A DNA stretch of 34,061 nucleotides from an uncultured Pseudomonadota bacterium (GCA_937884235.1 CALGBT010000815.1:1-34061), one strand, 5' to 3'; counted from the first letter of the stretch, positions 11,880 to 34,061 are shown. Program-made: numbers and translations. Notes: generated from the sequence alone by a model not told the origin.

Positions 11880-14800
11880 CTACCACTCAACATAGACGAC
11901 ACCGTTGGCACCTTTGCCGCCCGTGGGGCGACTGCCGTTGTAGCCGCCGGCGCCACCGCCGGAGCCATGTCCTTGACCGCCTTTGCCGGACCAACTCGCA
12001 CCGCCGTTGCCAGCAGTGGGGCCGGCCCCGTCGATGAGTAGGCCGCCGGCACCGCCGCCGCCGCTATGCGAAGAGGAGCCCGCAGCCCCGCCGGCCCCGG
12101 CAGTCAACGAGGCCAGCACAGCCCCGGCCAGGTTGTCAAAATGACCGCCACTGCCGCCCGAATAGGTGCAACCGTTCTGGCCGGCCGACCCGCCCTGGCC
12201 ACCCTTTCCTGCGCAGCCGGAATTGCCGGCACCGCCACCACCGCTGCCGCCATTACCCCCACCCGAGCCATTGGTATTCCCGCCGTTGCCGCCACTGGCA
12301 CTCAAGTAGCCCCCGAAGGAAGAGGTTGCCCCCTTGCTGCCCGGCGCGTCGTTGGTGTTGGCAACACCTCCATTACCGCCACCGCCGACCGTCACGGTCA
12401 CCACGCCAGCAACGTCGTAATTGCCGTAGAGAACGTAGCCTGAACCGCCGCCGCCGTAGTGGCTGCCGGCACCACCACCACCGCCACCAACCACTACGAC
12501 CCGCACAGTGCTTACCCCGGGTGGCACGGTGAAAGTCTGAGCGCCGCCGGTGTAAGTGAAGACCTTGTTGCCGGGCTGGTACTCCACGCAAGTCCCCGTC
12601 TGGCAGACGATTCCACCATCCTGGGTGCAGGCCGTGCCATCAGCCACGGGAGTGTAGAGACAGCCGCTACCAGCCTCGCAAGAGTCGTTGGTACATTCCT
12701 GGCTATCATCGCAGGTCAGGGCCGGCCCGCCGACGCAGGCCCCCTGGCTGCACTGATCCTGGGTAGTGCAGGCATTGGCATCATCGCAAGAGGCATCATT
12801 GGCGATGAAGGTGCAGCCCGCGGCAGGACTACAGCCATCGTCGGTGCAAGGGTTGCCGTCGAGACACTCAAGGGGTTCAGAACCGACACACACGCCGTCG
12901 ACGCAAGTGTCCGTCTTGGTGCACTGATTGTCGTCGTCACAGCTACCATCAATGGCCGTGTATTCGCAGCCGTTGGCGGGGTGGCAGGTATCGAGGGTGC
13001 AAGGATTGTCGTCATCACAATCGAGGGCACCGCCCGGTACGCAAGACCCATTGTCGCAAGCGTCACCAGTGGTGCACGCGTTGAAGTCTGTGCAGACCCC
13101 GGCGGTCGGCAAAAACTCGCAGCCCACGTTGGCATCGCAGCTATCGGCGGTGCAGATGTTACCGTCGTTGCAGTTGAGTTGCCCGCCGCCGGCGCATTGC
13201 CCCAATTCGCACTTCTCGCCCACGGTGCAGGCATCGCCATCATCGCAGGGAGCAGTATTGAAAGTGTGAATGCATCCCTGAAGCGGCGTGCAAGTATCAT
13301 TGGTGCACAGATTGTCGTCGTCGCAAGAGACCGCCTGAGTACCTTTGCAGGAACCGGCGCCGCAGATGTCGGCGAGGGTGCAGAGGTTGCCATCATCGCA
13401 GTCAGCTCCGTTAGCGGTGTGCACACAACCGGACTCCGGCGAGCACGAATCGTCGGTGCAGATGTTCTGATCATCGCAACCCAACGCACCGCTCCCCTGG
13501 CACTCGCCTTGAGCGCAAGTATCAACGGGAGTACAGATATTGCCGTCATCGCAGGGAGCAGCATTGTCGGCGTGAACGCAACCACCCGCAGGGTCGCAGG
13601 CATCGCTGGTGCACGGGTTCGCATCATCACAATCAAGCCACCCCTTGCCAACGCAAAGGCCACCAGAGCACAAATCGTTGAGAGTGCACGGGTTGCCATC
13701 GTCACATTTGCCGTCGTTGGGGACGTACTGACAGCCTTTCTTGGAATCGCAGGAATCGCTGGTGCAGTTGTTCTGGTCGTCGCAGGCCACCGCGATCTGG
13801 CCCTGACACTGGCCCTGGACACACGTGTCTGCCGCCGTGCAGAGGTCCTGATCGTCGCATGGTGCGCTGTTATGGGCGTACAGACAACCGCCCTGCGGAT
13901 TACACGAATCATTGGTGCAGACATCGCCATCATCGCAGTCTACGAGCCCCTCGAAAAGGCAATCACCGCCACCGCAATGATCGCCGAGGGTACAGTCGTT
14001 ACCATCGTCGCAGGGCTCAGCATTGGGCACGAAGGTGCAACCGCTGTTGTCGTCGCAGCTATCGTCAGTGCAGCCATTGGCATCGTCGCAAACCACCGGC
14101 ACCCCGCCCCCGCATTCGCCTTCGAAACAGGCATCACCCACGGTGCAAGGGTCGCCATCATCGCAGGCGAAACCCTGGTGATCCGGCACCAGTGCACATT
14201 CGCCCGTCCCCGGGTCACATGATGCCTTGACGCAAACTCCGTCAGGCCCTTCCGGTGCGGGGCAGGTCACCACCGTTCCCGGATCCACAAAGCACTGGTA
14301 AGGCAACTTGTCGAGTTGGCAGAAGAGCGTCCCGTTGCAAAGGTCACCATCTTCCAGAACAGCACAGTCGGCGTTGTCCTGGCATTCGCAGTCCACCGCA
14401 AAACCACTGCACTCGCCCTGGCTGCACTGGTCGTTGACGGTGCAAGGGTCACCATCATCGCAGGGCCCGGCGTTGAACTCCGCAGTGCACCCGCCAAGAC
14501 CATTGCAAAGATCGTCAGTACATGGATTGTCGTCGTCGCAGACAATGGGCAACCCGGTGCAGACGCCAGCTTCGCAGTGGTCACCCACGGTACAAGAGTC
14601 ACCATCCGCACACTCACCTTCCGAGAGGACTTGATGATCGCAACCCGCCTCTCCCATGCAGGAATCCTTGGTACAGGGGTTATCGTCATTACAAGGATTG
14701 ATGTAGTCCCCCTCCACTGCATTGGGTTCGTCGACCTCGCCATCGCAATCGTCGTCGATACCGTTGCATGATTCCAATTCCGGGACCGTGGCATCACAGT

Positions 14801-15533
14801 CAGTGAGACCCGCTTCGGCACAGAACCGCATGCCTTGACAGGTACCTATTTCATTAGCCACTTCACAGCCGGTCCAGAGCGACAACTCCACGGATCTTGA
14901 GGTGCAGGGGCAGACTCCGGCATCGGCAACACACTGCATGGTGGCGATGCCGTCCACGGTCTGGGCATCAACGCATGAAAAACCCCAGGGACAATCGCTG
15001 CCTTCAGCACAAACACTACCGCAGAACGCACCTTCGTCGCCGTAGTCCACGCAAACGTCCTCGGCACCGCTGGGACTCTTGCAGCTATCGCCACCATTGC
15101 ACGGCTTGCAGAGATTCGAGACATCGGACACGCAAATATAGACCACGTCGGGGTCAGCACCCGCCACCTGCTTGCACGACCATCCCGGGGGGCAATCCTC
15201 CTGGCAAGGAACCGTGCAAACCGCCTCTCCCATGTGCTCCACACACCAGCTCGACTGGCAATCGCCATTGCCCACGCAGGGGTCCAGAAAACATCCGGTT
15301 CCCGGCTCACACTCGACAAATGGCGCGTCCGGTCCCGAATCGAAACTCAACTCCGGCTCGATATAGAGGTCGGGCTCATCAGAAGCTTCCCCTGAGGAAG
15401 CCTCGTCCGGGACCGCAGATACGTCAGTCGTCGGGGTCGCATCCGGAACGTCGGCAACAGTAATTGTTGTCCCACCATTGTTGCAGGCAAAAAACATCAG
15501 AGTTGCGGCAAACAAAAAGCCAGTATTGCGCAT
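11880..15533 (-). CDS. giant cysteine-rich repeat lipoprotein, paralog 1 (C-terminal glycine-rich domain)
   Basis: ATG with GGAGG upstream. Lipobox MFFAC-NN followed by an acidic linker. Cys-rich head ends in CNGIDDDCDGEVDE. There are 12 bipartite 51-aa repeats (CDDGNxCTxxDxCxxGxC + CDDxNxCTxDxCxxxxGC). The C-terminus VFTYTGGAQTFTVPPGV...GGGGGG is a glycine-rich domain. Total length is 1217 aa. Confidence 0.92.
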   Translation of the reverse strand: MRNTGFLFAATLMFFACNNGGTTITVADVPDATPTTDVSAVPDEASSGEASDEPDLYIEPELSFDSGPDAPFVECEPGTGCFLDPCVGNGDCQSSWCVEHMGEAVCTVPCQEDCPPGWSCKQVAGADPDVVYICVSDVSNLCKPCNGGDSCKSPSGAEDVCVDYGDEGAFCGSVCAEGSDCPWGFSCVDAQTVDGIATMQCVADAGVCPCTSRSVELSLWTGCEVANEIGTCQGMRFCAEAGLTDCDATVPELESCNGIDDDCDGEVDEPNAVEGDYINPCNDDNPCTKDSCMGEAGCDHQVLSEGECADGDSCTVGDHCEAGVCTGLPIVCDDDNPCTDDLCNGLGGCTAEFNAGPCDDGDPCTVNDQCSQGECSGFAVDCECQDNADCAVLEDGDLCNGTLFCQLDKLPYQCFVDPGTVVTCPAPEGPDGVCVKASCDPGTGECALVPDHQGFACDDGDPCTVGDACFEGECGGGVPVVCDDANGCTDDSCDDNSGCTFVPNAEPCDDGNDCTLGDHCGGGDCLFEGLVDCDDGDVCTNDSCNPQGGCLYAHNSAPCDDQDLCTAADTCVQGQCQGQIAVACDDQNNCTSDSCDSKKGCQYVPNDGKCDDGNPCTLNDLCSGGLCVGKGWLDCDDANPCTSDACDPAGGCVHADNAAPCDDGNICTPVDTCAQGECQGSGALGCDDQNICTDDSCSPESGCVHTANGADCDDGNLCTLADICGAGSCKGTQAVSCDDDNLCTNDTCTPLQGCIHTFNTAPCDDGDACTVGEKCELGQCAGGGQLNCNDGNICTADSCDANVGCEFLPTAGVCTDFNACTTGDACDNGSCVPGGALDCDDDNPCTLDTCHPANGCEYTAIDGSCDDDNQCTKTDTCVDGVCVGSEPLECLDGNPCTDDGCSPAAGCTFIANDASCDDANACTTQDQCSQGACVGGPALTCDDSQECTNDSCEAGSGCLYTPVADGTACTQDGGIVCQTGTCVEYQPGNKVFTYTGGAQTFTVPPGVSTVRVVVVGGGGGGAGSHYGGGGSGYVLYGNYDVAGVVTVTVGGGGNGGVANTNDAPGSKGATSSFGGYLSASGGNGGNTNGSGGGNGGSGGGGAGNSGCAGKGGQGGSAGQNGCTYSGGSGGHFDNLAGAVLASLTAGAGGAAGSSSHSGGGGAGGLLIDGAGPTAGNGGASWSGKGGQGHGSGGGAGGYNGSRPTGGKGANGVVYVEW
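12630..14693 (-). repeat. in-frame tandem coding repeat array, 153-nt (51-aa) period, 12 units, split by a 75-aa insert
   Basis: The first Cys of the A half-repeat falls at aa 457, 508, 559, 610, 661, 712, 763, 814, 865 and 916, exactly 51 apart. Two more units precede the insert. Confidence 0.9.
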
Positions 15534-15694
15534 GAGGTGCCTCCGTAATCGTCACGCGATAGTACAGTCCGCGAGCCATTGCTGCAAGTCAGGCACCACG
15601 CGGGCCCGGTCGATTTTTTGTGCTTCTGCCCCTGCTCCTCCCGATATAGAGGATGGAGCAATCCTGCCCCAGCGACCGCAGCAAGGAGGCATCC

Positions 15695-16252
15695 ATGATC
15701 TTTCAGTGGACCATTCTGCTACTCATTTCTCCCCTTATGATGCCGGCCATGCCGGCAGGACGACCGCCTGACCCCGGGGAACTGGTGATAACCGAGATCA
15801 TGGTGGACCCACATGCGACAAAGGACACCTACGGGGAGTACCTGGAGGTCACCAACGTCAGCGACGACCCAGTCCAACTGCTCGGTCTCATAGTCCGGGA
15901 TCACGACCGTGACTGGTGCCCGGTGACACGGCCACTGCTGGTCCCAGCCGGCCGGGCCGTGGTCTTTGCCCGCCGCTGGGAACCGTCGGCCAATGGCGGG
16001 TTCTTCCCCAGCTACCTCTGCACGGGCCATGCGCTCCACCTCAAAAACGACCGCGACAGCATCGTCCTCGACTGGTACGGGGTGGACATCGACGAGGTCA
16101 CCTATCGAGCCCGGGAGTGGCCGCTAGAACCGGGCAAAGCCATGGAACTGGACCGCTCCTGCTATGACTCGGCCATCAACGATGAACCGTCGGCGTGGGC
16201 CAGGTCACGCACCCCCATGCCCAGCGGCGACTTTGGCACACCCGGGAAATAG
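15695..16252 (+). CDS. secreted lamin-tail-domain (LTD) protein
   Basis: ATG 15695 lies after AAGGAGG. There is a hydrophobic N-terminus. LVITEIMVDPHATKDTYGEYLEVTNVSDDPVQLLGLIVRD is the characteristic LTD opening motif. Length is ~185 aa. Confidence 0.75.
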   Translation: MIFQWTILLLISPLMMPAMPAGRPPDPGELVITEIMVDPHATKDTYGEYLEVTNVSDDPVQLLGLIVRDHDRDWCPVTRPLLVPAGRAVVFARRWEPSANGGFFPSYLCTGHALHLKNDRDSIVLDWYGVDIDEVTYRAREWPLEPGKAMELDRSCYDSAINDEPSAWARSRTPMPSGDFGTPGK

Positions 16253-18812: not shown

Positions 18813-21800
18813 ATGAATCGTTTCGCCCTTGCCGCAGCCCTTCTGCTCGCAACAACTCTCCTGCTGGCGTGCAGCAACCAGGGGGGCGTAACACTCCTCA
18901 AGGATGCCATGGATTCCCAACAGGGGGACGGCAAAACTGTGCTGGACATGGCGGTCGAAGAGAGCCTCAGCGACCTGCGGCACGACGCCTGGACTGAGGA
19001 CAACCGTGGCGATACTGCCGACCTCCGCGACGAGCCCAGCGACTTCGGCACACCTTGCTCCGACAACGACGACTGCCTTTCCGGGCTGTGCATCCCGCAT
19101 CGGGGTGAGCTGGTCTGCTCCCATGAATGTGTAGAAGAGTGCCCCGACGGATTCATCTGCAGTGCCATCACTTCCGGCGGCCCGGACATGTTCTTTGCCT
19201 GCATCAGCCTCTACCCGTCACTCTGCTTGCCCTGCTCGTCCAGCGACGATTGCGAGCCGGGCCCAGGCGTGCCCACGGCCTGCGTCATCTACCCGGGCGA
19301 GGGCTCCTTCTGCGCCACCCAATGCACTGAGGAGATTCTCTGCCCCGAGGGAAGCTACTGCCTCGACGTCGATACCATGGAAGGGGGCAGCGGCAACTAC
19401 TGCACCAGGAACCAGGGCCCCTGCGAGTGTACTCAGTTCGCCATTGCCACGGGCCTCAAGACGCCCTGCTCGGTGACCAACGACTTTGGCACCTGCTCCG
19501 GCAACCGGGTATGCCAGGCCGATGGTCTGACCGAATGTAATGCAGCAGTCCCCAACGAGGAGTTCTGCAACGGCGCCGACGACAACTGTGACGGCCAGGT
19601 AGACGAGGGTACCTGCGTCGATGACAACCCTTGCACCCTGGATGAATGCCAGCCCAACCAAGGCTGCATCTTCACCCCACAGGAGGGGATGGAGTGCGAC
19701 GACGGCGACCCCTGCACGGTTGCCGAGCTGTGCCTGGCCGGCATCTGCCAGGGGTCGCCGGTGACTTGCAGCGATGACAACCAGTGCACCGATGACCTCT
19801 GCAGCATCGACGGTGGCTGCTCCTTTGAGCCCAACCAGGATGCCTGTGATGACGGTGACCCGTGCACCGTTGGCGATACCTGCAAGCTGGGACTCTGCAC
19901 GAGCACACCGATTGCGTGCAACTGCACGGTCGATGCCGATTGCAAAGCCCTGGAAGACGGCGATGCCTGCAACGGCACTCTTTTCTGCGACGTCTCGCAG
20001 ATCCCATATCAATGCCAGCCCGTGCCCGGCAGCGTCGTTGACTGCCCGGCACCGGAGGGAAAGAACAAGCTCTGCATGGCCGCCTGGTGCGACCCGTCGG
20101 ACGGCAGCTGCTCGCTGGTTCCAGCCAACGGGGGAAACCCCTGTGACGACGGCAATAAGTGCACTTATGGTGAGAGCTGCAGCGACGGCGCCTGTGTTGG
20201 CGGCAAAGCCCTCAACTGCAATGACGGCGATCCCTGCACCGATGACGCCTGCCAGGCGACGACAGGCTGCACAGCCACCTTCAATGACGCCCCCTGCGAT
20301 AATGGCAACTTCTGCACCACCAATGACTTCTGCGTCGCCGGGGAATGTACCGCGGGAGAAGCGCTCAACTGCAACGACAACAACGCCTGTACCAACGATA
20401 TCTGCAACCCGGTCAAGGGCTGCCTGCACACCAACAGCAGTCAACCCTGCGACGACCTCGACCCCTGCACCGAGCAAGACTCCTGCTCCGGCGGATTCTG
20501 CCTGGGCACCGTCCCCAAGAATTGTAACGACAACAACCCCTGCACGGACGACATCTGCGTTCCCCTGGCGGGTTGCTCCTACAACAACAACAGCAATCCG
20601 TGCAGTGACGGCAATGCCTGTACGGTGGCCGACAAGTGCGTCGGTGGTTCCTGCAATCCCGGGAACACCCTTGATTGCGATGACGGCAATGTCTGCACCA
20701 ACGACTCATGCTCGCCTGCGGAAGGCTGCCAGCATGCCCCCAACAAGTCCCCCTGCGACGACAACAACTCCTGTACCTCGCAGGACCAGTGCGCTGCGGG
20801 CAAGTGCATCGGCAGTGCCGATGTTGATTGCGACGATGACAATCCCTGCACCAAGGATCTCTGCCTCGCCAATGGTGGTTGCCAACACGAGAATGTGGTG
20901 GCACCGTGTAGCGATGGCAACCCCTGTACTGCGGGGGACATTTGCGCCAACGGCGAGTGTCAACCTGGAGACTCTGTGGATTGCGACGATGGCAACGTCT
21001 GTACTGCCGATTCCTGCAGCCAGAGCAATGGGTTGTGCCTCCATTCCCCCACCCCCGGGGATTGTGACGACAACAACCCGTGTACAACGAAGGACGCCTG
21101 CGGTGGTGGCAAATGCGTCGGCACTACTCCTCCCGATTGCAACGACCAGAACGTTTGCACTACCGACTACTGCGACCCGGCCAGTGGCTGCGTTCACCTG
21201 CTCAACAGCGCACCCTGTGATGACGACAACCTTTGCACCACCAAAGACCAGTGCAACCTCGGCGAGTGCGCCGGCGGTCCAGCCCTCTCCTGCACCGACG
21301 GAAATCCCTGCACCGACGACGGCTGCAACGCGGCGACCGGCTGCACCTTCACGCCCAACACCACACCTTGCGACGATGCCAACGCATGCACTGAGGGCGA
21401 TACCTGCAAGTCCGGGTGGTGCGTAGGCGTCGCCTCCAGTTGCGACGATCTCAACCCCTGCACCGCGGACAGCTGCGACCCGGGGGTCGGTTGCCTGCAC
21501 CTGCCTGCGGCGGGTGCTTGTGACGACAACGATGCTTGCACCGGCGATGATCTCTGCGCCAATGGACTGTGCGGCAGCGGGCCCGCAGTCAACTGCAACG
21601 ACGGCAACATCTGCACTGCCGACGCCTGCGACGCCGATACCGGTTGCACGCACACACCGACGGACGGAGGGTGCGACGACGACAATGCTTGCACCGTGGG
21701 TGATTCCTGCAATGAGGGCACCTGTCAAGCCGGGGGCATAGCCCTTGACTGCGACGACAGCGAGGTCTGCACCGATGATTCCTGCGACCCTGACCTGGGC

Positions 21801-22388
21801 TGCCAGCACACCAACAACGCAGTAGCCTGTGATGACAGCAACCAGTGCACCGTGGGCGATGTCTGTGCCATTGGCGTTTGCACCGCCGGGCCAGCTACCC
21901 TCGACTGCAGTGACAACGACCCCTGCACCACCGACACCTGCGACCCGAACCTCGGGTGCCAGCACTCGGGAGGCGGCTGCCTGCAATTCAGTCACGCCTT
22001 CAGCGCCGGCCCCACCACAGGAGCCGCCTGCAACAAGTGGAACGCCTTCCGGGCCACGCTGACTGGCAACTACAGCAAGGTCACCATCAAGGGCACTTAC
22101 GACCAGGTCGGCGTCTCCTGCACCGGGGCCAGCGCCAATGCCATCTGCAACTCGCTGCGCACCAAATCGGCCGGCTCCTGGAGCTGCGGCGGGCGGACCT
22201 GGCGCACTGGGGACTGCGGCGGTGACATCGAGGTCAACGCCAATGGCGACATGTGCAATTGTCCGGGCAACGGTTACACCGTGCGACCCTGCATAGACTA
22301 CCCGGGGTCGTCAAACCCCAACTGGGGCGGAGCCCTCACAGAGACCTGCAACAGTCCAACGCAAACCCTTGAACTGATTTGCCAGTAG
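18813..22388 (+). CDS. giant cysteine-rich repeat lipoprotein, paralog 2 (C-terminal 11-Cys module instead of glycine-rich domain)
   Basis: Lipobox LLLAC-SN followed by an acidic linker. The head is colinear with paralog 1 and ends CNGADDNCDGQVDE. There are 14 bipartite ~51-aa repeats with the same insert after unit 2. The last 136 aa (CLQFSHAF...TLELICQ) are unrelated to the other two tips. Confidence 0.92.
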   Translation: MNRFALAAALLLATTLLLACSNQGGVTLLKDAMDSQQGDGKTVLDMAVEESLSDLRHDAWTEDNRGDTADLRDEPSDFGTPCSDNDDCLSGLCIPHRGELVCSHECVEECPDGFICSAITSGGPDMFFACISLYPSLCLPCSSSDDCEPGPGVPTACVIYPGEGSFCATQCTEEILCPEGSYCLDVDTMEGGSGNYCTRNQGPCECTQFAIATGLKTPCSVTNDFGTCSGNRVCQADGLTECNAAVPNEEFCNGADDNCDGQVDEGTCVDDNPCTLDECQPNQGCIFTPQEGMECDDGDPCTVAELCLAGICQGSPVTCSDDNQCTDDLCSIDGGCSFEPNQDACDDGDPCTVGDTCKLGLCTSTPIACNCTVDADCKALEDGDACNGTLFCDVSQIPYQCQPVPGSVVDCPAPEGKNKLCMAAWCDPSDGSCSLVPANGGNPCDDGNKCTYGESCSDGACVGGKALNCNDGDPCTDDACQATTGCTATFNDAPCDNGNFCTTNDFCVAGECTAGEALNCNDNNACTNDICNPVKGCLHTNSSQPCDDLDPCTEQDSCSGGFCLGTVPKNCNDNNPCTDDICVPLAGCSYNNNSNPCSDGNACTVADKCVGGSCNPGNTLDCDDGNVCTNDSCSPAEGCQHAPNKSPCDDNNSCTSQDQCAAGKCIGSADVDCDDDNPCTKDLCLANGGCQHENVVAPCSDGNPCTAGDICANGECQPGDSVDCDDGNVCTADSCSQSNGLCLHSPTPGDCDDNNPCTTKDACGGGKCVGTTPPDCNDQNVCTTDYCDPASGCVHLLNSAPCDDDNLCTTKDQCNLGECAGGPALSCTDGNPCTDDGCNAATGCTFTPNTTPCDDANACTEGDTCKSGWCVGVASSCDDLNPCTADSCDPGVGCLHLPAAGACDDNDACTGDDLCANGLCGSGPAVNCNDGNICTADACDADTGCTHTPTDGGCDDDNACTVGDSCNEGTCQAGGIALDCDDSEVCTDDSCDPDLGCQHTNNAVACDDSNQCTVGDVCAIGVCTAGPATLDCSDNDPCTTDTCDPNLGCQHSGGGCLQFSHAFSAGPTTGAACNKWNAFRATLTGNYSKVTIKGTYDQVGVSCTGASANAICNSLRTKSAGSWSCGGRTWRTGDCGGDIEVNANGDMCNCPGNGYTVRPCIDYPGSSNPNWGGALTETCNSPTQTLELICQ
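19614..21977 (+). repeat. in-frame tandem coding repeat array, ~153-nt period, 14 units, split by a 75-aa insert
   Basis: The A-unit first Cys falls at aa 444, 495, 546, 597, 648, 699, 751, 802, 853, 903, 954 and 1006. Spacing is 51 aa except three steps of 52, 50 and 52. Confidence 0.9.
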
Positions 22389-22393
22389 GGACC

Positions 22394-23275
22394 ATGGGAA
22401 CCGCCACCGGAAGTCTGCATGATACCGGCGAGTTTCGTCGCCACGGCCTGTTGGCAACGGGACTCTACCTGGTCACCATCATGGCTGTGGGCGGTGCCAT
22501 GTGGGGGTTCATTTGGAGTCATGGGGCGCAACGGCCCCAGGTGACTCTGCCTGACACCGGCTCCAGGTGGGCCGACGACACCCCGGTGATTGCCGGGACC
22601 GGTGCCGCCCTGCCACTTCTCCACCACCTTACCAGGAGTTGGCGTCAAGCGGGCGGGCAGACTATCCAGGTGGCCCCAAGCATCGGCTCTGGTGGCGGAC
22701 TCGCCGCCTTGCGGGACGGTGTTATCGACTGCGCCATCGTCTCCCGTCCTCTCACCGCCGAGGAGAGAGCCGGCCGGGTTGTCCAGCAACTGGCCATGGC
22801 CCCCATCGTCCTGGCCGCAGGAAGTAATGTCCCCATGGAGAAGATCACCCCCAGGGATCTGGTGCAACTGGTGCGTCCAGCTGCCACTTCAGACTCATCC
22901 AGCGCCGGGTTTGTCCTGCGCGAACCGGGAGACTCCGGGCAGCAGTTGCTGGCAGAGGCTCTCCCGGACCTGGCAGCAGCACTAGCAGACGCCACGGCCC
23001 ATGAGTCCCGGCCAATGGCTTTCACCGATGCGGACATGGAACGACGTCTCCTGGCTCGCAGCAACCTTATTGGGGTCTTCGACCTGGGCACCATTCGCCT
23101 CCGCTCCCTACCACTCCAGGTGCTGCCCATTGAGGGACTCTCCACAGAGCTGGTCCGCCCCTTCACCCTGGTTTGCCACGCTGAGCATCGGCTTGACGGC
23201 TTTCTCCACTACCTCAACACGACGCCCGTGCGTGAAGCGCTGCTCTCTTTTGGCTATCAGCTGGGGGAGAACTAG
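22394..23275 (+). CDS. membrane-anchored PstS-like periplasmic binding protein (PBP_like_2 type)
   Basis: N-terminal TM is LLATGLYLVTIMAVGGAMWGFIW. SIGSGGGLAALRDGVIDCAIVSRPLTAEE resembles the phosphate-binding-protein-family motif. The start is uncertain: ATG at 22394, or TTG at 22379 overlapping the paralog-2 stop. Confidence 0.65.
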   Translation: MGTATGSLHDTGEFRRHGLLATGLYLVTIMAVGGAMWGFIWSHGAQRPQVTLPDTGSRWADDTPVIAGTGAALPLLHHLTRSWRQAGGQTIQVAPSIGSGGGLAALRDGVIDCAIVSRPLTAEERAGRVVQQLAMAPIVLAAGSNVPMEKITPRDLVQLVRPAATSDSSSAGFVLREPGDSGQQLLAEALPDLAAALADATAHESRPMAFTDADMERRLLARSNLIGVFDLGTIRLRSLPLQVLPIEGLSTELVRPFTLVCHAEHRLDGFLHYLNTTPVREALLSFGYQLGEN

Positions 23276-23276
23276 C

Positions 23277-24614
23277 ATGGTTTCTCGCACCTGGCAGACC
23301 AGTCTTACCTATCGCCTCGGCAGAACCGTACTGCCGCTTTCCGCGGTGGCGGCCCTGCTGCTGGCACTTAGCGCCCCGGTGGCCTGGTTCGCCCTGAAGT
23401 ACGGCGAGCTGACGCTGCGGGCCCAAGGCACAGCAGCCCGAGTTGCGGCGGAGCTGGGGCAGTTTGTGCACGAATCACCCCGGCTCTGGCCGTACAATAC
23501 GCCGAAGATAAGCCAACGCATGCAGTCACTGCTGTCCCTCGATGCCGACACCTACATTGCCGTCGTGGGCCCGGGGGGAGACAGTGCGTATGAGCGAGAC
23601 CCGCAAGATGGCCCCTATCTCTGGCACCTGGAAACTCTGTCCACTGCGGGCGGCACTGGCGGATGGGTCGTTGTGGGGGTCTCGGCCGGCAAGTTCCTGG
23701 CTACTGCGCTCACTCTGCTGGCCGGTTTCGGCCTCCTCGGGGGTGTTGTCGCAGGCTTGCTCTTCATGCTGCCAATGAAGGCCATGCGCAGCACCGAAGA
23801 ACAGCTCAGCACTACTCTGGGTAGCTTGAGCGAAGCCCAGGAGCGCCTGCGCGGCATCAATGAGGAACTGGAACTGCGCGTCCGGGAGAAGACTCAGGGA
23901 CTGGTCGATGCCCACGACCAACTCACCGCCCAGCAAGAAGCTCTTCAACGCCTCGCAGCCTCTCTCTACAATGCCCAGGAGGAAGAGCGTCACCGGATCG
24001 CCGCGGATCTGCACGATTCCGTGGGGCAGATGTTGACGGCAATTCGCGTCAATCTCGAAACCGCAGAGAGGATGCAGGAAGAAGGTTCGGACGGCGCACC
24101 ATTGGGCCCGCTCCTCCAGCACACCTCGGATCTCGTTAATCAAACCACCGACTCGATCCGGCAGGCCATCCATCTTCTCGAACCGCCGCAAATGCAGGAG
24201 GGCGGCCTGCGTCGCGCCCTCAAAGCTCTCGACCGGCAGTTTGAACTGACCCCCTATGAGATGGTTGTGGACGACTCTGGGCTACCTGAAGAGCGGCTGC
24301 CGGCAACTGTGGAGGCGCTGGCCTTCCGCATTGTCCAGGAGGCGCTCAACAACGCCCTACGCCACGGTGGTGCCGACGTTGTCAGGCTGCGCCTCGATGT
24401 CCGGGAAGGGGTTTTCCTTGTCGTTGTCGAAGACAACGGCAGTCGCGGGCGCCAGGTCTACAAGGAAGGGCACGGCCTCGCATCGTTGCGCGACAAGGTC
24501 CAGCTACTGGGCGGCCAGTTCAAAGTTGAGCCGCTGCCAAATGGCCATGCTGTAGCGGCCTCCATCCCCATTTTGACCGTCACTCCAACTGCTCCGGAGC
24601 GCGATGACGACTGA
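23277..24614 (+). CDS. sensor histidine kinase, HisKA_3 (NarX/DesK-like) class
   Basis: ATG 23277 lies 1 nt after the PBP stop; the ORF-track N-terminal extension to 23001 overlaps that gene. Two TM segments flank a ~150-aa periplasmic region, followed by a coiled coil. The H-box is EEERHRIAADLHDSVGQ, the N-box QEALNNALRHG, G1 VEDNGSRG and G2 GHGLASL. Confidence 0.87.
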   Translation: MVSRTWQTSLTYRLGRTVLPLSAVAALLLALSAPVAWFALKYGELTLRAQGTAARVAAELGQFVHESPRLWPYNTPKISQRMQSLLSLDADTYIAVVGPGGDSAYERDPQDGPYLWHLETLSTAGGTGGWVVVGVSAGKFLATALTLLAGFGLLGGVVAGLLFMLPMKAMRSTEEQLSTTLGSLSEAQERLRGINEELELRVREKTQGLVDAHDQLTAQQEALQRLAASLYNAQEEERHRIAADLHDSVGQMLTAIRVNLETAERMQEEGSDGAPLGPLLQHTSDLVNQTTDSIRQAIHLLEPPQMQEGGLRRALKALDRQFELTPYEMVVDDSGLPEERLPATVEALAFRIVQEALNNALRHGGADVVRLRLDVREGVFLVVVEDNGSRGRQVYKEGHGLASLRDKVQLLGGQFKVEPLPNGHAVAASIPILTVTPTAPERDDD

Positions 24615-25245
24615 ATCGATAGTGCGCATCCTGGTAGTGGATGACCACACTATCGTGCGCCAAGGGCTGGTCGCCCTCCTCTCTGGAGTCACCGATTTTG
24701 CCGTCGTGGCCGATTGCGGCAGCGGCTTGCAGGCCGTCAGCCTGGCGGAGAAGCACCGGCCGGACATTGTGCTCCTCGATTTGAGCCTGCCGGACATGAA
24801 CGGCGTGGAGGTCATCCACGAACTGGCGGCACGCAGCCTCCCCACCCGTGTCGTCGTCCTGACCATGCACGCGAACCCCGACTACGCCAGACCGGCCTTG
24901 CGCGCAGGGGCGGCTGGATATCTGATCAAGGGCTCCGATATCGGCGATCTCGTCACCGCCATTCGCAAGGCAGTACAAGGTGAAACCCACTTGAGCCCGG
25001 TAGTCGCCAGCATGCTTGTGGATTCACCGCCATCACCCTTCAGTGACCGGCTCTCCCCGCGGGAGGAAGAAGTACTCCGCCTGGTTGCCCAGGGGAAAAC
25101 CAGTAGAGAGGTCGGTTTGCTCCTGGAGATCAGCCCGCGTACTGTGGACAACCACCGGCGCAATATCATGGAGAAGTTGGGGGTCAACGATGTTGTCAGC
25201 CTGACCAGAGCTGCAATTAAGGCTGGCCTGGTGATGCCGGAGTAG
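24604..25245 (+). CDS. NarL/FixJ-family response regulator (REC + LuxR-type HTH)
   Basis: It overlaps the kinase stop by 11 nt. The REC domain shows ILVVDDHTIVRQG...DIVLLDLSLPDMNG. The HTH is LSPREEEVLRLVAQGKTSREVGLLLEISPRTVDNHRRNIMEKLG. Confidence 0.92.
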   Translation: MTTESIVRILVVDDHTIVRQGLVALLSGVTDFAVVADCGSGLQAVSLAEKHRPDIVLLDLSLPDMNGVEVIHELAARSLPTRVVVLTMHANPDYARPALRAGAAGYLIKGSDIGDLVTAIRKAVQGETHLSPVVASMLVDSPPSPFSDRLSPREEEVLRLVAQGKTSREVGLLLEISPRTVDNHRRNIMEKLGVNDVVSLTRAAIKAGLVMPE

Positions 25246-26172
25246 TCAGGCCAACTGACCCTGGCAACTTCGTCGCGTCGCAAACTCACGCCGGATCTCC
25301 GCCAGAAAAGCGCTCTTGTCCAATTTGCCGTCGGTGTCAATCAGCCAATCCGGGGCCAATGTGCAACCCAGGAGCCCGTCACTCACCATGCGCTCCACGA
25401 CGATGTTCGGATGGACTCGTTCAAGTACATCGACAACGCCTTTGACATACTCGGCCATGGTCAGCAAAGGCACCTCGCCGCGCCGCCAGCTATCCGCCAG
25501 CACAGTCCCTTCCACAACATAGAGCATGTGCAGTTTGATTGCATCGATACTGGCGGCCGAGAGACCCCTTGCCGTATTCAGCCAATCCTCACGGCTCTCA
25601 CCGGGCAGACCAAGAATCTGATGCGCGCAGACAAACAGGCCCCTCTCCTTGCAGGCCCCAATAGCTGCCAGAGAAGCCTCCGCCCGGTGCCCTCGACCGA
25701 TGGCTGCCACCGTCTCTTCCCGCAGGCTCTGCACTCCGATTTCCACCGAAACCCAGGTACGATGCGAGAATTCTTCCAACAGTTCCAACACTGCTTCCGG
25801 CAAGCAATCGGGACGGGTACTGACGGAGAGCCCAACCACACCAGGCTGAGCCAGCGCCTCTTCATAGAGGGGTCGCAGAACCTCCACGGACGCGTAGGTG
25901 GAAGAGAACGATTGGAAGTAGGCGACATACTGTTCGTGACGCGGACTACCCGCCCGGTCAGCCCGGAAACGAGCCATCTGCGCCGCCGGACTCCCCAACT
26001 CACGCAGACGTCCGGTCCCCCCCTCAGCGTCGCAGTAGACGCATCCCCGCCACGCCAAAGAACCATCGCGATTGGGACAGGTGAACCCACCATCAATGGG
26101 CAACTTCCGGACCAACCCCCCAAAGCGTTCCTTCAAGTAGCTGGCAAATGATCGATAGGGTACTTCCCGCAT
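25246..26172 (-). CDS. TIGR01212-family radical SAM protein (YhcC-like)
   Basis: YRSFASYLKERFGGLVRKLPIDGGFTCPNRDGSLAWRGCVYC is the characteristic N-terminus and Cys cluster of this family. I prefer ATG 26172 to the upstream ATG at 26214. Confidence 0.85.
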   Translation of the reverse strand: MREVPYRSFASYLKERFGGLVRKLPIDGGFTCPNRDGSLAWRGCVYCDAEGGTGRLRELGSPAAQMARFRADRAGSPRHEQYVAYFQSFSSTYASVEVLRPLYEEALAQPGVVGLSVSTRPDCLPEAVLELLEEFSHRTWVSVEIGVQSLREETVAAIGRGHRAEASLAAIGACKERGLFVCAHQILGLPGESREDWLNTARGLSAASIDAIKLHMLYVVEGTVLADSWRRGEVPLLTMAEYVKGVVDVLERVHPNIVVERMVSDGLLGCTLAPDWLIDTDGKLDKSAFLAEIRREFATRRSCQGQLA

Positions 26173-26398
26173 CCTCGAGCCTCCACCCCATCCATACCGC
26201 CATGCGCACCTCACATCAAGGCGGAATGTCCCGAATCCGCTCCGGGCCAGTACTCACCGGCTAGGTAGATCTACTCACTGCAGCAATGCCGTCGCTCTGC
26301 TAGAGTACGGACAGGACGCTGGGGCCTTCGCGGTTGGCCGTTACGAGCGGCAACCGTAAGGGAGCGGGGACCGCCTTTGCGATGTTTCTAGAGGAATC

Positions 26399-31297: not shown

Positions 31298-34061
31298 TTA
31301 GTAGGTGACCTTGATCTGGCCATGCCCCATGCGGACATCAGCCGTGGTGCTGCTCGCGGTAACACCCCCCACGTAGGAGGACCCGCCTCCACCGCCGCCA
31401 CCGCCGCAGTTCTGGTGGCCGCCGCCACCGCCACCGTAGTATCCGCCGCCGCCGGAGCCAGCGCTGCCGCACACATCACCGTCAGCCTCCCCCGCTCCCT
31501 TGCCACCCTGGCCAAGTTCCCCGGCAGTGCCAACGATGTAGTCGCAGCATGCAAGCCCCGTTGCCCCGGCCGCGCCGCCGCCAGCCTGCGTCCCCGCCTT
31601 CCCCCCTCTCCCGGGGGGCTGGTTGGGAATGCTGTCTGTTCCATCCTGGCCCGAAGTGCCGCCACCGCCGCCGCCGACTCCGCCCGTCCAGCCGCCAGAG
31701 CCGAAGCTGTATCCCGCGTGCCCGCCACCGCCGCCGGCAACGATCTTGCGGTCGCTCAACGCGGTGCCGCCGACCCGCACATCCGAGCCGCCGCCACCCC
31801 AGCCTTTGGCCCAGGAACTGACGTTCTTGCCGCCACCGTTCCAGCCCCCGGCACTACCTTTGCCCCCCACATAGAGGTGCAGAATCTGGCCGGGGGTGAC
31901 CGCCAGCGTACCAGTGGCCTTGCCACCCTTGCCGCCGTCGGGTACTTCGAAGCCATTACCTCCACCCTGTGCGCCATAGGCTTCAACCACCACCGACTTG
32001 ACACAAGGCGGCACCGTCCAGTCCTGCGTTCCGCCAGTGTAATCAAAGGTAATGGAGCCGGTCTCGCAGGCATCGATACACTCACCAGCCCAGCACTCCA
32101 GATCCTGGCCACACTCCGTACCGTTTGCCACCGGCACAAACTGACAGCCAGCCCCGGGGGCGCACGCATCGTCAGTGCACCCATTGGCGTCATCGCACTC
32201 CACCGCAATCCCCGGCTGACACTGGCCCGCACCACAGATGTCGCCATCGGTGCAGGCGTCGGCATCATCACAAGGTGCGGTGTTGGGAGTGTTCACACAG
32301 CCATCGACGGGGTGGCAGGAATCCGTGGTGCAAAGCTCATTGTCGTTGCAGCTGATCCCGGCCCCACCACCACACACGCCCCCGGCACAGAATTCATTGA
32401 CGGTACAGGCATCACCGTCGTCGCAGGGGACCGTATTGGGCACGTGCACACACCCGGCAACGGCATCGCAAGAATCATCTGTACACAAGTCGTCATCGTC
32501 GCAATCCAGGCCCGGACCGGCCTTGCACATGCCCCCTCCGCAAGCGTCGGCAACGGTACAGGCATTACTGTCATCGCAGGGCGCGGTGTTGTTCAGGAAT
32601 TGGCAACCGGTGTTGGGGTGACAGCTGTCGGTGGTGCACAGGTTACCATCTTTGCACTCCAGATTGCCGCTGCTGATACAATCCCCGAGGTGACAGTGGT
32701 CACCGGTGGTGCAAACGTCGGCATCGTCACAGGGGACGCTGTTGAGCAGGTGCAGGCAACCCACCGCCGGGTCACAACTATCGGTGGTGCAGAGGTTATC
32801 GTCGTCGCACCCGGGCGCAGTACTTCCCTTGCAAACCCCGGCAACGCAAGTGTCTACCAGCGTGCAGGCATTACCATCGTCACAGGCCGCCTCCTTGGGG
32901 ACAAACTGGCAGCCAAGTTCGCTGTCGCAGCTATCGTCGGTGCAGGGATTCTCGTCGACGCATGCCGCGGCCGGCCCCGGAGCGCATTCCCCGGCCAGGC
33001 AATGGTCCCCGACGGTGCACACATCACCATCCTGGCAAGGGGCCTGATTGGGCGTGTGGACACAGCCTGTATCCGGGTCACAGCTGTCATCCGTGCAAGG
33101 GTTATCGTCAGCACAAATTGCCGCGACGCCGGCGACACACTTACCGACCTGGCAACTGTCGCCGATGGTGCAAGCATCACCGTCATCGCACGCGAATTCA
33201 TCATGGTCCGGGATCAGACTGCACCCTCCCGCGGCCTCGAGGTCGCAAATCGATTGCTGGCAAATAGCATCAATACCGGTCGGAGCCGGACACTCCACCA
33301 CCGTCTCCGGCAGCACCACACACTGATAAGGCCACTTGTCCTTGTTGCAGCCTAACGTGCCATTGCAGAGGTCTCCGTCTTCGAACTGGGCACAGTCCTC
33401 GTCTGCCTGACAGTCACATGCCACCGGCGTCCCGAAACAACTGCCGTCCCCACAATAGTCACCGACTGTGCAGGCATCCCCGTCATCGCAGGCTGAAGTG
33501 TTGTTGGTGAACTCGCAGCCGCCAAAACCGTCGCAGGCATCATCGGTGCAGGGATTGCTATCATCACAGGCCACCGGGGAACCAGCGCAGACTCCCTCTG
33601 CGCAATGGTCACCGACGGTGCAAGCATCGCCATCAATGCACTCACCCGCGCTCAGCGCCTCATGAACACAGCCGGCCTCTCCTTTGCAGAGATCAGTGGT
33701 GCAAGCATTGCCATCGTCGCAGGGGCCCACATACTGACCCTCGTGGAATGTCCCCTCGTCCACATCACCATCACAGTTGTCGTCAACCCCATTGCAGACC
33801 TCGGCTGCGGGCACCTGGGCATCGCAGTCCCCCAGGCCATCGTCGAGGCAAACCCGCTGGCCCACACAGGCGCCAAAGTCGTTGGCCCGGGAGCAGGGGG
33901 TCCACAACCCCAGAGATACCGAGGTATCGGTGCAGGGGCAGACCCCCGCATCCGCCACGCACTGGACAGTGCTTACACCGTCCACCGTAACCGTCTCCAA
34001 ACAGGAGAAACCCCATGGGCAGTCCTCGTCAACGGCACACTTCGCCCCGCAGAAACTACCC
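31298..34061 (-). CDS. giant cysteine-rich repeat lipoprotein, paralog 3 (5' end beyond window; C-terminal glycine-rich domain)
   Basis: The frame stays open to nt 34061: upstream of the ORF-track TTG it reads GSFCGAKCAVDEDCPWGFSCLETVTVDG, colinear with paralog 1 GAFCGSVCAEGSDCPWGFSCVDAQTVDG. It carries CNGVDDNCDGDVDE, 9 bipartite 51-aa repeats and the same insert. The C-terminus is ITFDYTGGTQDWTVPP...AYGAQGGG...GGGGSDVRVGGTALSDRKIVAGGGGG. Confidence 0.92.
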   Translation of the reverse strand, partial: GSFCGAKCAVDEDCPWGFSCLETVTVDGVSTVQCVADAGVCPCTDTSVSLGLWTPCSRANDFGACVGQRVCLDDGLGDCDAQVPAAEVCNGVDDNCDGDVDEGTFHEGQYVGPCDDGNACTTDLCKGEAGCVHEALSAGECIDGDACTVGDHCAEGVCAGSPVACDDSNPCTDDACDGFGGCEFTNNTSACDDGDACTVGDYCGDGSCFGTPVACDCQADEDCAQFEDGDLCNGTLGCNKDKWPYQCVVLPETVVECPAPTGIDAICQQSICDLEAAGGCSLIPDHDEFACDDGDACTIGDSCQVGKCVAGVAAICADDNPCTDDSCDPDTGCVHTPNQAPCQDGDVCTVGDHCLAGECAPGPAAACVDENPCTDDSCDSELGCQFVPKEAACDDGNACTLVDTCVAGVCKGSTAPGCDDDNLCTTDSCDPAVGCLHLLNSVPCDDADVCTTGDHCHLGDCISSGNLECKDGNLCTTDSCHPNTGCQFLNNTAPCDDSNACTVADACGGGMCKAGPGLDCDDDDLCTDDSCDAVAGCVHVPNTVPCDDGDACTVNEFCAGGVCGGGAGISCNDNELCTTDSCHPVDGCVNTPNTAPCDDADACTDGDICGAGQCQPGIAVECDDANGCTDDACAPGAGCQFVPVANGTECGQDLECWAGECIDACETGSITFDYTGGTQDWTVPPCVKSVVVEAYGAQGGGNGFEVPDGGKGGKATGTLAVTPGQILHLYVGGKGSAGGWNGGGKNVSSWAKGWGGGGSDVRVGGTALSDRKIVAGGGGGHAGYSFGSGGWTGGVGGGGGGTSGQDGTDSIPNQPPGRGGKAGTQAGGGAAGATGLACCDYIVGTAGELGQGGKGAGEADGDVCGSAGSGGGGYYGGGGGGHQNCGGGGGGGGSSYVGGVTASSTTADVRMGHGQIKVTY
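32114..33721 (-). repeat. in-frame tandem coding repeat array, 153-nt (51-aa) period, 9 units, split by a 75-aa insert
   Basis: The A-unit first Cys falls at ORF-track aa 271, 322, 373, 424, 475, 526 and 577, exactly 51 apart. Two more units precede the insert. Confidence 0.9.

What the first reader, a model, noticed from the sequence alone, without database searches (positions are those of the whole stretch)
21978..22385. Tip swap: paralog 2 replaces the glycine-rich domain with an unrelated 136-aa, 11-Cys module
After the last repeat, paralog 2 continues with an unrelated sequence. It reads CLQFSHAFSAGPTTGAACNKWNAFRATLTGNYSKVTIKGTYDQVGVSCTGASANAICNSLRTKSAGSWSCGGRTWRTGDCGGDIEVNANGDMCNCPGNGYTVRPCIDYPGSSNPNWGGALTETCNSPTQTLELICQ. 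It has no similarity to the other two tips, no repeat periodicity, and a different Cys spacing. I do not recognise the domain. The same stalk with a different tip resembles cassette exchange in tail fibres and polymorphic surface or toxin proteins. It is the strongest hint that the family is modular.
Basis: seen in the sequence. Interest (0 to 1): 0.65.

Follow-up and report, generated by a model that had tools for sequence, protein, structure and literature searches.

The report
Unclassified ten-cysteine tip domain
The last 134 residues of a long, cysteine-rich surface lipoprotein from an uncultured marine myxobacterium form a real, widespread but uncatalogued disulfide-locked domain, which most likely acts as the binding tip of a rod that carries many different tips in related proteins.

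Summary
Window 21978-22385 encodes the C-terminal 136 aa (11 Cys) of a 1191-aa ORF, and it is unrelated to the Gly-rich tips of the two paralogs (hhalign probability 0.2%).

It is a genuine domain. An exhaustive search found 639 clusters (50% identity level) that match it end to end, and 116 of the top 150 proteins carry it at their extreme C-terminus. No Pfam, NCBIfam, PHROGs or PDB sequence model covers it. An AlphaFold2 model is very confident (pLDDT 96, pTM 0.90) and has no Foldseek neighbour in PDB or BFVD.

Cysteine co-loss gives five disulfides. The first Cys of the finding belongs to the stalk, so the module has 10 Cys.

The domain sits on Cys-rich rods, type IX secretion system (T9SS) cargo, type IV pilin-like proteins and rotifer EGF proteins. 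None of the host proteins scanned in detail has a catalytic domain.

A census of 57 complete proteins with this head and stalk found roughly two dozen unrelated tip types, including Gly-rich, LamG, fibrinogen-like and lamin-tail domains. The family is therefore modular.

The event is old. Orthologs at 52-75% identity keep this tip, which is their best-conserved part. There are no spare cassettes and no immunity gene.

Best reading: an adhesin or lectin-like recognition module. The ligand is unknown.

The parts
18813..18872 (+). Lipoprotein-type signal peptide of paralog 2 (MNRFALAAALLLATTLLLAC; lipobox L-L-A-C, Cys20)
   Evidence: Read from the translation and a lipobox pattern match. No dedicated signal-peptide predictor was run. 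The orthologs in L005 and L001 also have an N-terminal hydrophobic stretch followed by Cys.
18873..19049 (+). Acidic, poorly conserved linker (aa 21-79)
   Evidence: Only 25-47% amino-acid identity between orthologs, and dN/dS about 0.8-1.0.
19050..19607 (+). Cys-rich 'head' region (aa 80-265), shared by the whole family and ending in a CNGxDDxCDGxVDE motif
   Evidence: Aligns between paralogs 1 and 2 and the orthologs. A profile of this region plus the first stalk repeats (A5, aa 75-440) found 217 proteins and 441 metagenome stretches.
19608..21980 (+).
   Evidence: Pfam PF00526 Dicty_CTDC, E=2.4e-67, 16 stretches. Cys1056 is conserved in only 2% of tip-domain homologs, so it belongs to the stalk.
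21981..22385 (+). The finding: a ~134-aa, 10-Cys alpha+beta domain of an uncurated family at the extreme C-terminus (stop at 22386-22388)
   Evidence: 639 homologous clusters. AlphaFold2 pLDDT 96 and pTM 0.90. Five disulfides from Cys co-loss: C18-C105, C48-C70, C57-C135, C80-C93, C95-C124. No curated family or solved structure matches.
11883..12548 (-). Comparator: Gly-rich tip of paralog 1 (gene 11880..15533)
   Evidence: Pfam PF21722 Gly_rich_2, aa 996-1217, E=2.7e-15. Also hits tail-fibre PHROGs.
31358..31987 (-). Comparator: Gly-rich tip of paralog 3 (gene 31298..beyond the window end)
   Evidence: Pfam PF12810 ALK_LTK_GRD, E=1.5e-14. The ORF is open to the end of the window.

Best explanation
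Paralog 2 encodes a lipid-anchored protein of an uncultured aquatic or marine Myxococcota bacterium. It is probably surface-exposed. From N- to C-terminus it has a lipoprotein signal, an acidic linker, a Cys-rich head, a ~790-aa rod of disulfide-stapled Dicty_CTDC repeats, and a compact 134-aa alpha+beta domain at the far end. Five disulfides hold that domain together.

The domain belongs to a large extracellular family that has not been curated. It is almost always displayed at the distal end of extracellular scaffolds. It most likely works as the ligand-recognition (adhesin or lectin-like) module that decides what the rod binds. Sister proteins with the same chassis present other binding modules instead: polyglycine Gly-rich, LamG, fibrinogen-like and lamin-tail domains. 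Together they give the organism a repertoire of specificities.

Shown: the domain is real, its boundaries, its disulfide pairing (by covariation), a confident predicted fold, its distribution, the diversity of tips, and purifying selection.

Inferred: lipidation and surface exposure, the binding function, and the ligand (unknown; a glycan or a cell-surface component of other organisms is the leading guess).
For: Real, autonomous domain:
- 639 clusters match it, generally across nearly the whole tail.
- AlphaFold2 gives pLDDT 96 and pTM 0.90, with a beta-alpha-beta-beta-alpha-beta core plus five strands.
- Cysteines are lost in pairs: 45/45, 12/12, 11/11 and 5/7.

Display position:
- 116 of 150 carriers have it at the very C-terminus, and 17 carry 2-3 copies, often in tandem.
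- Partner domains across 82 carriers are dominated by extracellular scaffold or adhesin types: Stig1, DUF4215, Big_9, HYR, He_PIG, PKD, EGF, Laminin_G_3, TSP3, LTD. Only the 25 most frequent of 69 matched families were listed.
- Seven large carriers scanned in full showed no catalytic domain.
- It is followed by T9SS sorting domains in Bacteroidota-type cargo.
- It is fused to type IV pilin-like N-termini (GFTLIELMVV) in four proteins.
- One T9SS protein carries both ALK_LTK_GRD and two copies of this domain.

Same position in the family: tips of head-and-stalk relatives include ALK_LTK_GRD, Laminin_G_3, Fibrinogen_C/COLFI, LTD and PPC, which are known binding or adhesion folds.

Constraint: the tip is the best-conserved segment among orthologs, 84/74/62% identity against 75/56/59% for the stalk.

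Conserved surface-type residues include W21, W75, W116, R103, N115, Q129 and E85.

The Cys-rich 'stalk displays a recognition domain' idea has a precedent in TraA (PMC6372800).
Against: There is no direct evidence for any ligand. No homolog has been characterised, and there are no RNA data.

The model coordinates could not be inspected, so it is untested whether the conserved Trp, Arg, Asn and Gln residues form one surface patch.

Lipidation and surface exposure rest on a sequence pattern only.

Guilt-by-position arguments cannot exclude a structural capping role or a non-binding role.

E85 and D42 are fairly well conserved (about 80%), so a small catalytic site is not formally excluded.
Confidence: 0.6

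Rival explanations
1. The tip is a toxin or effector domain of a polymorphic-toxin-like lipoprotein. This would be analogous to myxobacterial SitA lipoprotein toxins or Rhs/teneurin-like C-terminal toxins, delivered to neighbouring cells.
For: It is a C-terminal variable domain on a long repetitive lipoprotein, and the family has many alternative tips. Myxococcota are rich in polymorphic toxins (10.1101/2025.11.11.687626).
Against: - Five conserved disulfides point to an extracellular, oxidising site of action.
- The domain occurs in tandem and internally in giant adhesin-like proteins and on pilin-like proteins.
- The other tips in the family are lectin or adhesion folds, not toxin folds.
- No conserved small downstream gene exists. 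Downstream is a PBP_like_2, kinase and regulator set in the window and L005, and an opposite-strand Impact_N gene in L001.
- The tip is more conserved than the stalk, not hypervariable.
Confidence: 0.07
2. The domain is a small secreted enzyme module, for example glycan-active or lytic. It could be linked functionally to the adjacent GH13 alpha-amylase lipoprotein.
For: E85 (81%) and D42 (78%) are conserved acidic residues. A GH13 plus CBM48 lipoprotein gene lies directly upstream in the window and in L005.
Against: - Apart from the cysteines, only G117 and Q129 are invariant. The acidic positions are replaced by Ala, Ser or Asn in 12-20% of members.
- Tandem repeats of the domain are typical of binding modules.
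- The amylase neighbourhood is not kept in L001.
- No structural similarity to any enzyme was found.
Confidence: 0.1
3. The domain is a structural cap, folding nucleus or oligomerisation domain for the Cys-rich rod, like collagen C-propeptides or fibre C-terminal chaperone domains. It would have no ligand of its own.
For: It lies at the extreme C-terminus in 116 of 150 proteins. COLFI-like and endostatin-like tips, which are C-terminal collagen domains, occur in the same position in relatives. The domain is highly conserved.
Against: - It occurs on unrelated scaffolds (Ig/HYR/PKD arrays, pilins, EGF), internally, in 2-3 copies, often in tandem, and upstream of T9SS sorting domains.
- Relatives with quite different tips build the same rod, so the rod does not need this particular cap.
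Confidence: 0.13
4. The domain is a C-terminal sorting or anchoring signal for a secretion or attachment pathway, comparable to T9SS CTDs or MYXO-CTERM.
For: There is a strong bias to the extreme C-terminus.
Against: - In Bacteroidota-type proteins it is followed by a bona fide T9SS sorting domain, Por_Secre_tail or CHU_C.
- It is present in tandem, internally, in rotifers and in a DPANN archaeon.
- It is 130 aa with five disulfides and has no hydrophobic tail.
- The window protein already has an N-terminal lipid anchor.
Confidence: 0.03

Closest known systems
TraA kin-recognition receptor of Myxococcus xanthus (PA14-like variable domain, Cys-rich repeat stalk, MYXO-CTERM)
   Same: It is a myxobacterial cell-surface protein in which Cys-rich repeats are proposed to form a stalk that displays a recognition domain away from the membrane (PMC6372800). 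The recognition domain is the polymorphic part.
   Different: The topology is inverted. Here the anchor is an N-terminal lipobox and the recognition domain is C-terminal. The tip is not PA14, there is no MYXO-CTERM, and no traB-like partner gene lies beside it. The repeats are Dicty_CTDC type. In this family, variation comes from whole-domain replacement rather than from allelic polymorphism within one domain.
Polyglycine-rich receptor-binding tips (phage gp38-type adhesins; ALK/LTK glycine-rich domain; Pfam Gly_rich_2 / ALK_LTK_GRD)
   Same: They occupy exactly the same position on the window's paralogs 1 and 3 and on about 10 relatives. They co-occur with the new domain in one T9SS protein. 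From general knowledge, they are known ligand or receptor binders.
   Different: There is no sequence or profile similarity. The new domain is Cys-rich and alpha+beta, not Gly-rich, and it is absent from phage collections.
Modular type IV pilins and T9SS-secreted giant adhesins (HYR/PKD/Ig arrays with terminal binding modules)
   Same: The same domain is grafted onto pilin-like N-termini and onto T9SS cargo with HYR, PKD or Ig repeats. These are architectures in which appended modules act in adhesion (general knowledge).
   Different: The window protein uses a lipoprotein anchor and a CTDC rod instead. No member with this domain has been studied experimentally.
Polymorphic toxin systems (SitA lipoproteins, Rhs / teneurin-like proteins)
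   Same: Both have a conserved N-terminal chassis with exchangeable C-terminal domains, both are abundant in Myxococcota, and Dicty_CTDC repeats are listed among the N-terminal modules of bacterial teneurin-like proteins.
   Different: There is no toxin fold and no immunity gene. The tips are disulfide-rich extracellular binding-type domains, and the tip is conserved rather than hypervariable.

Membership tests
Pfam PF00526 Dicty_CTDC repeat proteins (stalk only) | Repeated ~24-aa Cys-rich units that match the Pfam model above its gathering score | tested here: met
   E=2.4e-67, 222.7 bits against a cut-off of 27, 16 stretches, all upstream of residue 1056. This applies to the stalk, not to the finding's domain.
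Glycine-rich tip domains (Pfam PF21722 Gly_rich_2 / PF12810 ALK_LTK_GRD) | Match to the family profile, or profile-profile similarity to the paralogs' Gly-rich tips | tested here: not met
   No Pfam hit for the tail at E<=1. hhalign of the 89-sequence domain profile against the paralog-1 tip gave probability 0.17%. The tail is 15% Gly against 33-35% in the paralog tips.
Any curated protein family or solved structure | A significant match to a Pfam-A, NCBIfam or PHROGs model, to a PDB sequence, or to a PDB or BFVD fold | tested here: not met
   Pfam: 0 hits for the tail, and no recurring family across 50 members, only scattered single weak hits. NCBIfam: 0. PHROGs: 0. PDB phmmer and profile search: 0. 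Foldseek best E=0.39 with TM<=0.26 in PDB, and E=0.24 in BFVD. CDD, SMART, CATH, ECOD and AlphaFold DB were not available.
Polymorphic toxin systems | A C-terminal toxin domain with a recognisable toxin fold or family | tested here: not met
   No toxin family was hit. The family's other tips are LamG, FBG, LTD or Gly-rich.
Polymorphic toxin systems | A cognate immunity gene immediately downstream, conserved together with the toxin | tested here: not met
   Downstream genes are PBP_like_2, a HisKA_3 kinase and a LuxR regulator in the window and L005, and a convergent Impact_N gene in L001.
Polymorphic toxin or tail-fibre cassette systems | Hypervariable tip relative to the chassis, orphan or silent cassettes nearby, and recent recombination | tested here: not met
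   The tip is the best-conserved segment among orthologs. A six-frame HMM scan finds a single copy in the window. The paralog stalks are only 46% identical.
TraA-type myxobacterial recognition receptors | An N-terminal PA14-like variable domain and a C-terminal MYXO-CTERM tag | tested here: not met
   No PA14 hit. The protein ends ...LELICQ* with no hydrophobic C-terminal tag. The features are as defined in PMC6372800.
Bacterial lipoproteins | An N-terminal signal peptide ending in a lipobox [LVI][ASTVI][GAS]C | tested here: met
   MNRFALAAALLLATTLLLAC: L-L-A-C at residues 17-20. This is a pattern match only; no predictor was run and there is no experiment.
Lectins / carbohydrate-binding modules (functional class) | Demonstrated binding to a glycan, or homology to a CBM or lectin family | not testable with these tools
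   No homology was found to any CBM or lectin family. Only architectural analogy supports this class: terminal position, tandem copies and conserved Trp, Arg, Asn and Gln residues.

The most novel reading that the evidence does not exclude
The tip defines a new fold family of extracellular recognition modules with five disulfides and no neighbour among solved structures. The family is spread across Myxococcota, Bacteroidota, pilin-bearing uncultured bacteria, a DPANN archaeon and bdelloid rotifers. The head plus CTDC-rod lipoproteins would then form a large 'plug-in tip' display system through which uncultured, possibly predatory, marine Myxococcota recognise different targets such as prey, particles or glycans. 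The new domain would provide a previously unknown binding specificity.
Probability: 0.35. Interest if true: 0.7.

Novelty: new variant of a known kind. Interest (0 to 1): 0.55.

Why it matters
A domain present in at least 639 sequence clusters, including RefSeq proteins of cultured Bacteroidota, has no entry in the curated libraries tested here and no solved relative. Proteins that carry it are labelled only by their other domains, or as hypothetical.

Defining the domain would improve annotation of many giant surface proteins. This report supplies its boundaries, disulfide map and a confident model.

The host family shows unusually clear whole-domain tip replacement on a constant lipoprotein rod. 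That makes it a natural system for studying how uncultured Myxococcota diversify surface recognition, and a possible scaffold for displaying binding modules.

If the fold and ligand prove new, this adds a new lectin or adhesin class.

Tried and rejected
- A single-sequence AlphaFold2 run gave pLDDT 36 and was useless. It was replaced by an 89-sequence alignment.
- The word-indexed homolog search with the tail alone found only one hit, which is a truncated gene call. The exhaustive search was needed.
- The viral contig scan with the domain alignment could not be run because no stretch was conserved enough.
- Searching for full-length family members with the head profile returned only fragments of 650 aa or less, so the tips were read from metagenome contigs instead.
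- The apparent stand-alone versions P0152-P0154 are C-terminal pieces of longer Cys-rich ORFs.
- dN/dS values are only indicative because synonymous sites are saturated (pS 0.53-0.73). I rely on the amino-acid identity contrasts.
- The literature searches found no description of this domain or of this lipoprotein family.
- No RNA runs were found.
- Readings considered and rejected: degenerate Gly-rich domain (43), toxin with immunity gene (51, 70), sorting signal, phage or plasmid origin.

Full report
OBSERVATION

It is the C-terminal end (aa 1056-1191) of ORF 18813..22388, which is 1191 aa long. That ORF has 159 cysteines, or 13%.

Pfam finds only Dicty_CTDC repeats in it (E=2.4e-67, 16 stretches), all upstream of the tail, and nothing in the tail itself.

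Paralog 1 (11880..15533, minus strand, 1217 aa) has the same repeats and ends in Gly_rich_2. Paralog 3 (31298 to beyond the window end, minus strand) ends in ALK_LTK_GRD.

Paralogs 1 and 2 align at 46% identity over 982 residues, including the non-repeat N-terminal head. They are true paralogs with unrelated ends. A profile of the tail family against the Gly-rich tip gives hhalign probability 0.17%.

THE TAIL IS A REAL, AUTONOMOUS, WIDESPREAD DOMAIN

The word-indexed search found only a 93-aa fragment. That fragment is the mis-called end of a 1193-aa ortholog (L001 6701..10282).

The exhaustive phmmer search of 1.84 billion representatives found 639 proteins at E<=1e-3, 338 at E<=1e-10 and 19 at E<=1e-30. 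Matches generally span nearly the whole tail. This fixes the domain at about 130-135 residues.

Among the best 150 proteins:
- 116 have the domain at the very C-terminus.
- 13 have it near the N-terminus and 21 have it internally.
- 17 have two or three copies.

In a 160-sequence alignment the cysteines disappear in pairs:
- C57 with C135 (45 of 45)
- C18 with C105 (12 of 12)
- C48 with C70 (11 of 11)
- C80 with C93 (5 of 7)
- C95 with C124, by elimination

The module is therefore a 10-Cys, five-disulfide domain.

G117 and Q129 are invariant. Further strongly conserved positions (about 75% or more of sequences) are F8, W21, F24, L28, G39, D42, G45, W75, E85, R103, P104, N113, N115, W116, G118 and T123.

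STRUCTURE

A single-sequence prediction failed (pLDDT 36). With an 89-sequence alignment, AlphaFold2 gives pLDDT 96.0 and pTM 0.90. The model has a beta-alpha-beta-beta-alpha-beta N-terminal half followed by five further strands.

Foldseek finds no neighbour. The best PDB match has E=0.39 and TM<=0.26, and the best BFVD match has E=0.24.

Sequence and profile searches of PDB are empty. The following curated libraries also give nothing:
- Pfam: the tail has no hit, and 50 diverse members share no family; only scattered weak hits appear, each in a single member.
- NCBIfam.
- PHROGs.

There are no tblastn matches in 50,697 phage or 72,556 plasmid records.

Within the reach of these tools, the domain is uncurated and has no solved relative. 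AlphaFold DB, CDD and ECOD could not be searched.

WHERE ELSE THE DOMAIN OCCURS

Named carriers include:
- HYR-domain giant proteins of the cultured Bacteroidota Nibribacter ruber and Maribellus luteus, and of an uncultured Draconibacterium
- a Pacearchaeota protein
- Deltaproteobacteria, Pseudomonadota and Bacteroidota metagenome-assembled genomes (MAGs)
- bdelloid rotifers (Rotaria, Adineta), once next to an EGF domain

None of these annotations mentions the domain.

Across 82 carriers the most frequent partner Pfam families are Stig1 (12), DUF4215 (10), Big_9, HYR, He_PIG, Disintegrin, MopE motif, Laminin_G_3, PKD, EGF, T9SS sorting domains and the N_methyl pilin motif. Only the 25 most frequent of 69 matched families were listed.

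Four carriers are type IV pilin-like proteins (GFTLIELMVV) with the domain as their C-terminal module. One T9SS protein carries ALK_LTK_GRD plus two copies of the domain. Seven large carriers scanned in full showed only adhesin-type domains and no catalytic domain.

THE HOST FAMILY AND THE 'TIP SWAP'

A MAG of an uncultured Myxococcales bacterium (L005) has a syntenic ortholog. Its amylase, CTDC protein, PBP_like_2, kinase, regulator and radical-SAM genes are all 64-83% identical to those of the window.

L001 and L028 hold more distant orthologs at 55% and 52% overall identity. Both carry the same tip.

In all three comparisons the tip is the best-conserved segment:

| Ortholog | Tip identity | Stalk identity | Head identity |
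|---|---|---|---|
| L005 | 84% | 75% | 80% |
| L001 | 74% | 56% | 49% |
| L028 | 62% | 59% | 46% |

Synonymous sites are saturated, so dN/dS (about 0.08-0.33 for the tip) is only indicative.

The tip has therefore been inherited together with its chassis for a long time and is under purifying selection. A six-frame HMM scan finds no second or silent copy in the window.

At family level, a profile of the head region (A5, paralog-2 aa 75-440, i.e. the head plus the first stalk repeats) found 441 relatives in metagenome contigs, and 80 loci were fetched. Fifty-seven complete head-and-stalk ORFs with at least 5 repeats and a tip of at least 100 aa fall into 26 tip clusters. Cluster 0 merges the Gly-rich tips with several DUF4215-linked ones, so the cluster count is only approximate.

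Pfam recognises ALK_LTK_GRD, DUF4215-linked ends, Laminin_G_3, LTD, Fibrinogen_C/COLFI, PPC, beta-propellers, DUF1554 and an endostatin-like end. Many tips remain unassigned.

In a neighbour-joining tree of heads (no bootstrap), three of the four carriers of the new domain group together. L028 did not pass the filter for the tree. Tip types are interleaved. For example, two tandem genes in L016 have sister heads but different tips.

An active cassette system like those of tail fibres or polymorphic toxins is not.

MECHANISM

The protein starts with a lipoprotein-type signal (lipobox LLAC, Cys20). An acidic, fast-evolving linker follows, then the head, then the rod.

The domain is disulfide-locked and placed distally. 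It recurs at the ends of extracellular scaffolds served by at least four different display routes: lipoprotein rod, T9SS cargo, pilin and eukaryotic EGF protein. It occurs in tandem copies, and its partners are adhesin-type domains. Relatives carry known binding folds at the same position.

Taken together, the most likely function is ligand recognition, as an adhesin or lectin-like module (confidence about 0.6). This is analogous to the stalk-displayed recognition domain proposed for TraA (PMC6372800).

The ligand is unknown. The conserved GH13 plus CBM48 neighbour in two genomes is a weak pointer to alpha-glucan, and that neighbourhood is not kept in L001.

Rival explanations are a structural cap (0.13), a small enzyme (0.10), a toxin (0.07) and a sorting signal (0.03). 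Each has specific counter-evidence, listed in the rival section.

NOVELTY AND VERDICT

Modular surface proteins with swappable binding tips are a known kind. This tip, however, is an uncurated domain family of at least 639 clusters. It has a confident predicted fold with no solved neighbour and a cross-kingdom distribution. The host lipoprotein family shows very extensive tip replacement.

I rate it a new variant of a known kind, interest 0.55. The source is an aquatic or seawater metagenome organism. No expression data were found.

Noticed in passing
window 4789-7422 (+): An 877-aa ORF with a lipoprotein-like N-terminus and extremely Gly-rich sequence (long GGGGG runs, apparently two similar halves). 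It has no Pfam hit at E<=1e-3. It may be another polyglycine-type surface protein.
   Followed up: partly
window 16346-18730 (+), 22379-25245 (+), 25246-26214 (-); L005 362-10199: A GH13 alpha-amylase with an AMPK1_CBM/CBM48 domain and a lipoprotein-like signal lies directly upstream of the CTDC gene. Downstream, closely spaced, are PBP_like_2, a HisKA_3 kinase and a LuxR-type regulator, then a 322-aa ORF on the opposite strand that I took to be a radical-SAM enzyme from its sequence; it was not scanned against Pfam. This order is conserved in the Myxococcales MAG L005 but not in L001. The PBP ORF probably starts at the ATG at 22394 rather than the overlapping TTG at 22379.
   Followed up: partly
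window 11883-12548 (-) and 31358-31987 (-): The two 'glycine-rich tips' of paralogs 1 and 3 hit different Pfam models, Gly_rich_2 and ALK_LTK_GRD. The paralog-1 tip also hits tail-fibre PHROGs.
   Followed up: partly
L016 3973-7116 and 7120-10524: Two tandem family members on one contig have sister heads in the neighbour-joining tree but different tips, one DUF4215-linked and one Gly-rich. This is the clearest case of tip replacement after tandem duplication.
   Followed up: partly
P0157, P0158, P0160 (Rotaria, Adineta); P0024 (Pacearchaeota): The domain is present in bdelloid rotifer genomes, once on a 2.08-Mb contig and once fused to an EGF-like region. These copies appear to have lost three of the five disulfides, judging by eye from the sequences. 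It is also present in a DPANN archaeon protein. Horizontal transfer between kingdoms is likely but was not analysed.
   Followed up: no
P0018, P0031, P0062, P0063; P0052: Four type IV pilin-like proteins (GFTLIELMVV N-termini) carry the domain as their C-terminal module. One T9SS cargo protein combines ALK_LTK_GRD with two copies of the new domain.
   Followed up: partly
L001, L006, L007 and the hits: Public gene calls systematically fragment these Cys-rich, high-GC genes. P0001 and P0152-P0154 are C-terminal pieces of longer ORFs. All listed head-region hits are 650 aa or less, although the true genes are about 1000-2000 aa.
   Followed up: yes
loci from sample Ga0233425 (L001, L012, L016, L022, L025, L041, L046, L068, L069, L072, L073, L086): A single metagenome sample contributes at least a dozen different loci of this head-and-stalk family. 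This suggests a large paralogous expansion in the organisms that carry it.
   Followed up: no
window 15653-16252 (+): A small 199-aa lamin-tail-domain (LTD) protein lies between paralog 1 and the amylase gene. LTD is also one of the alternative tips in the family.
   Followed up: no
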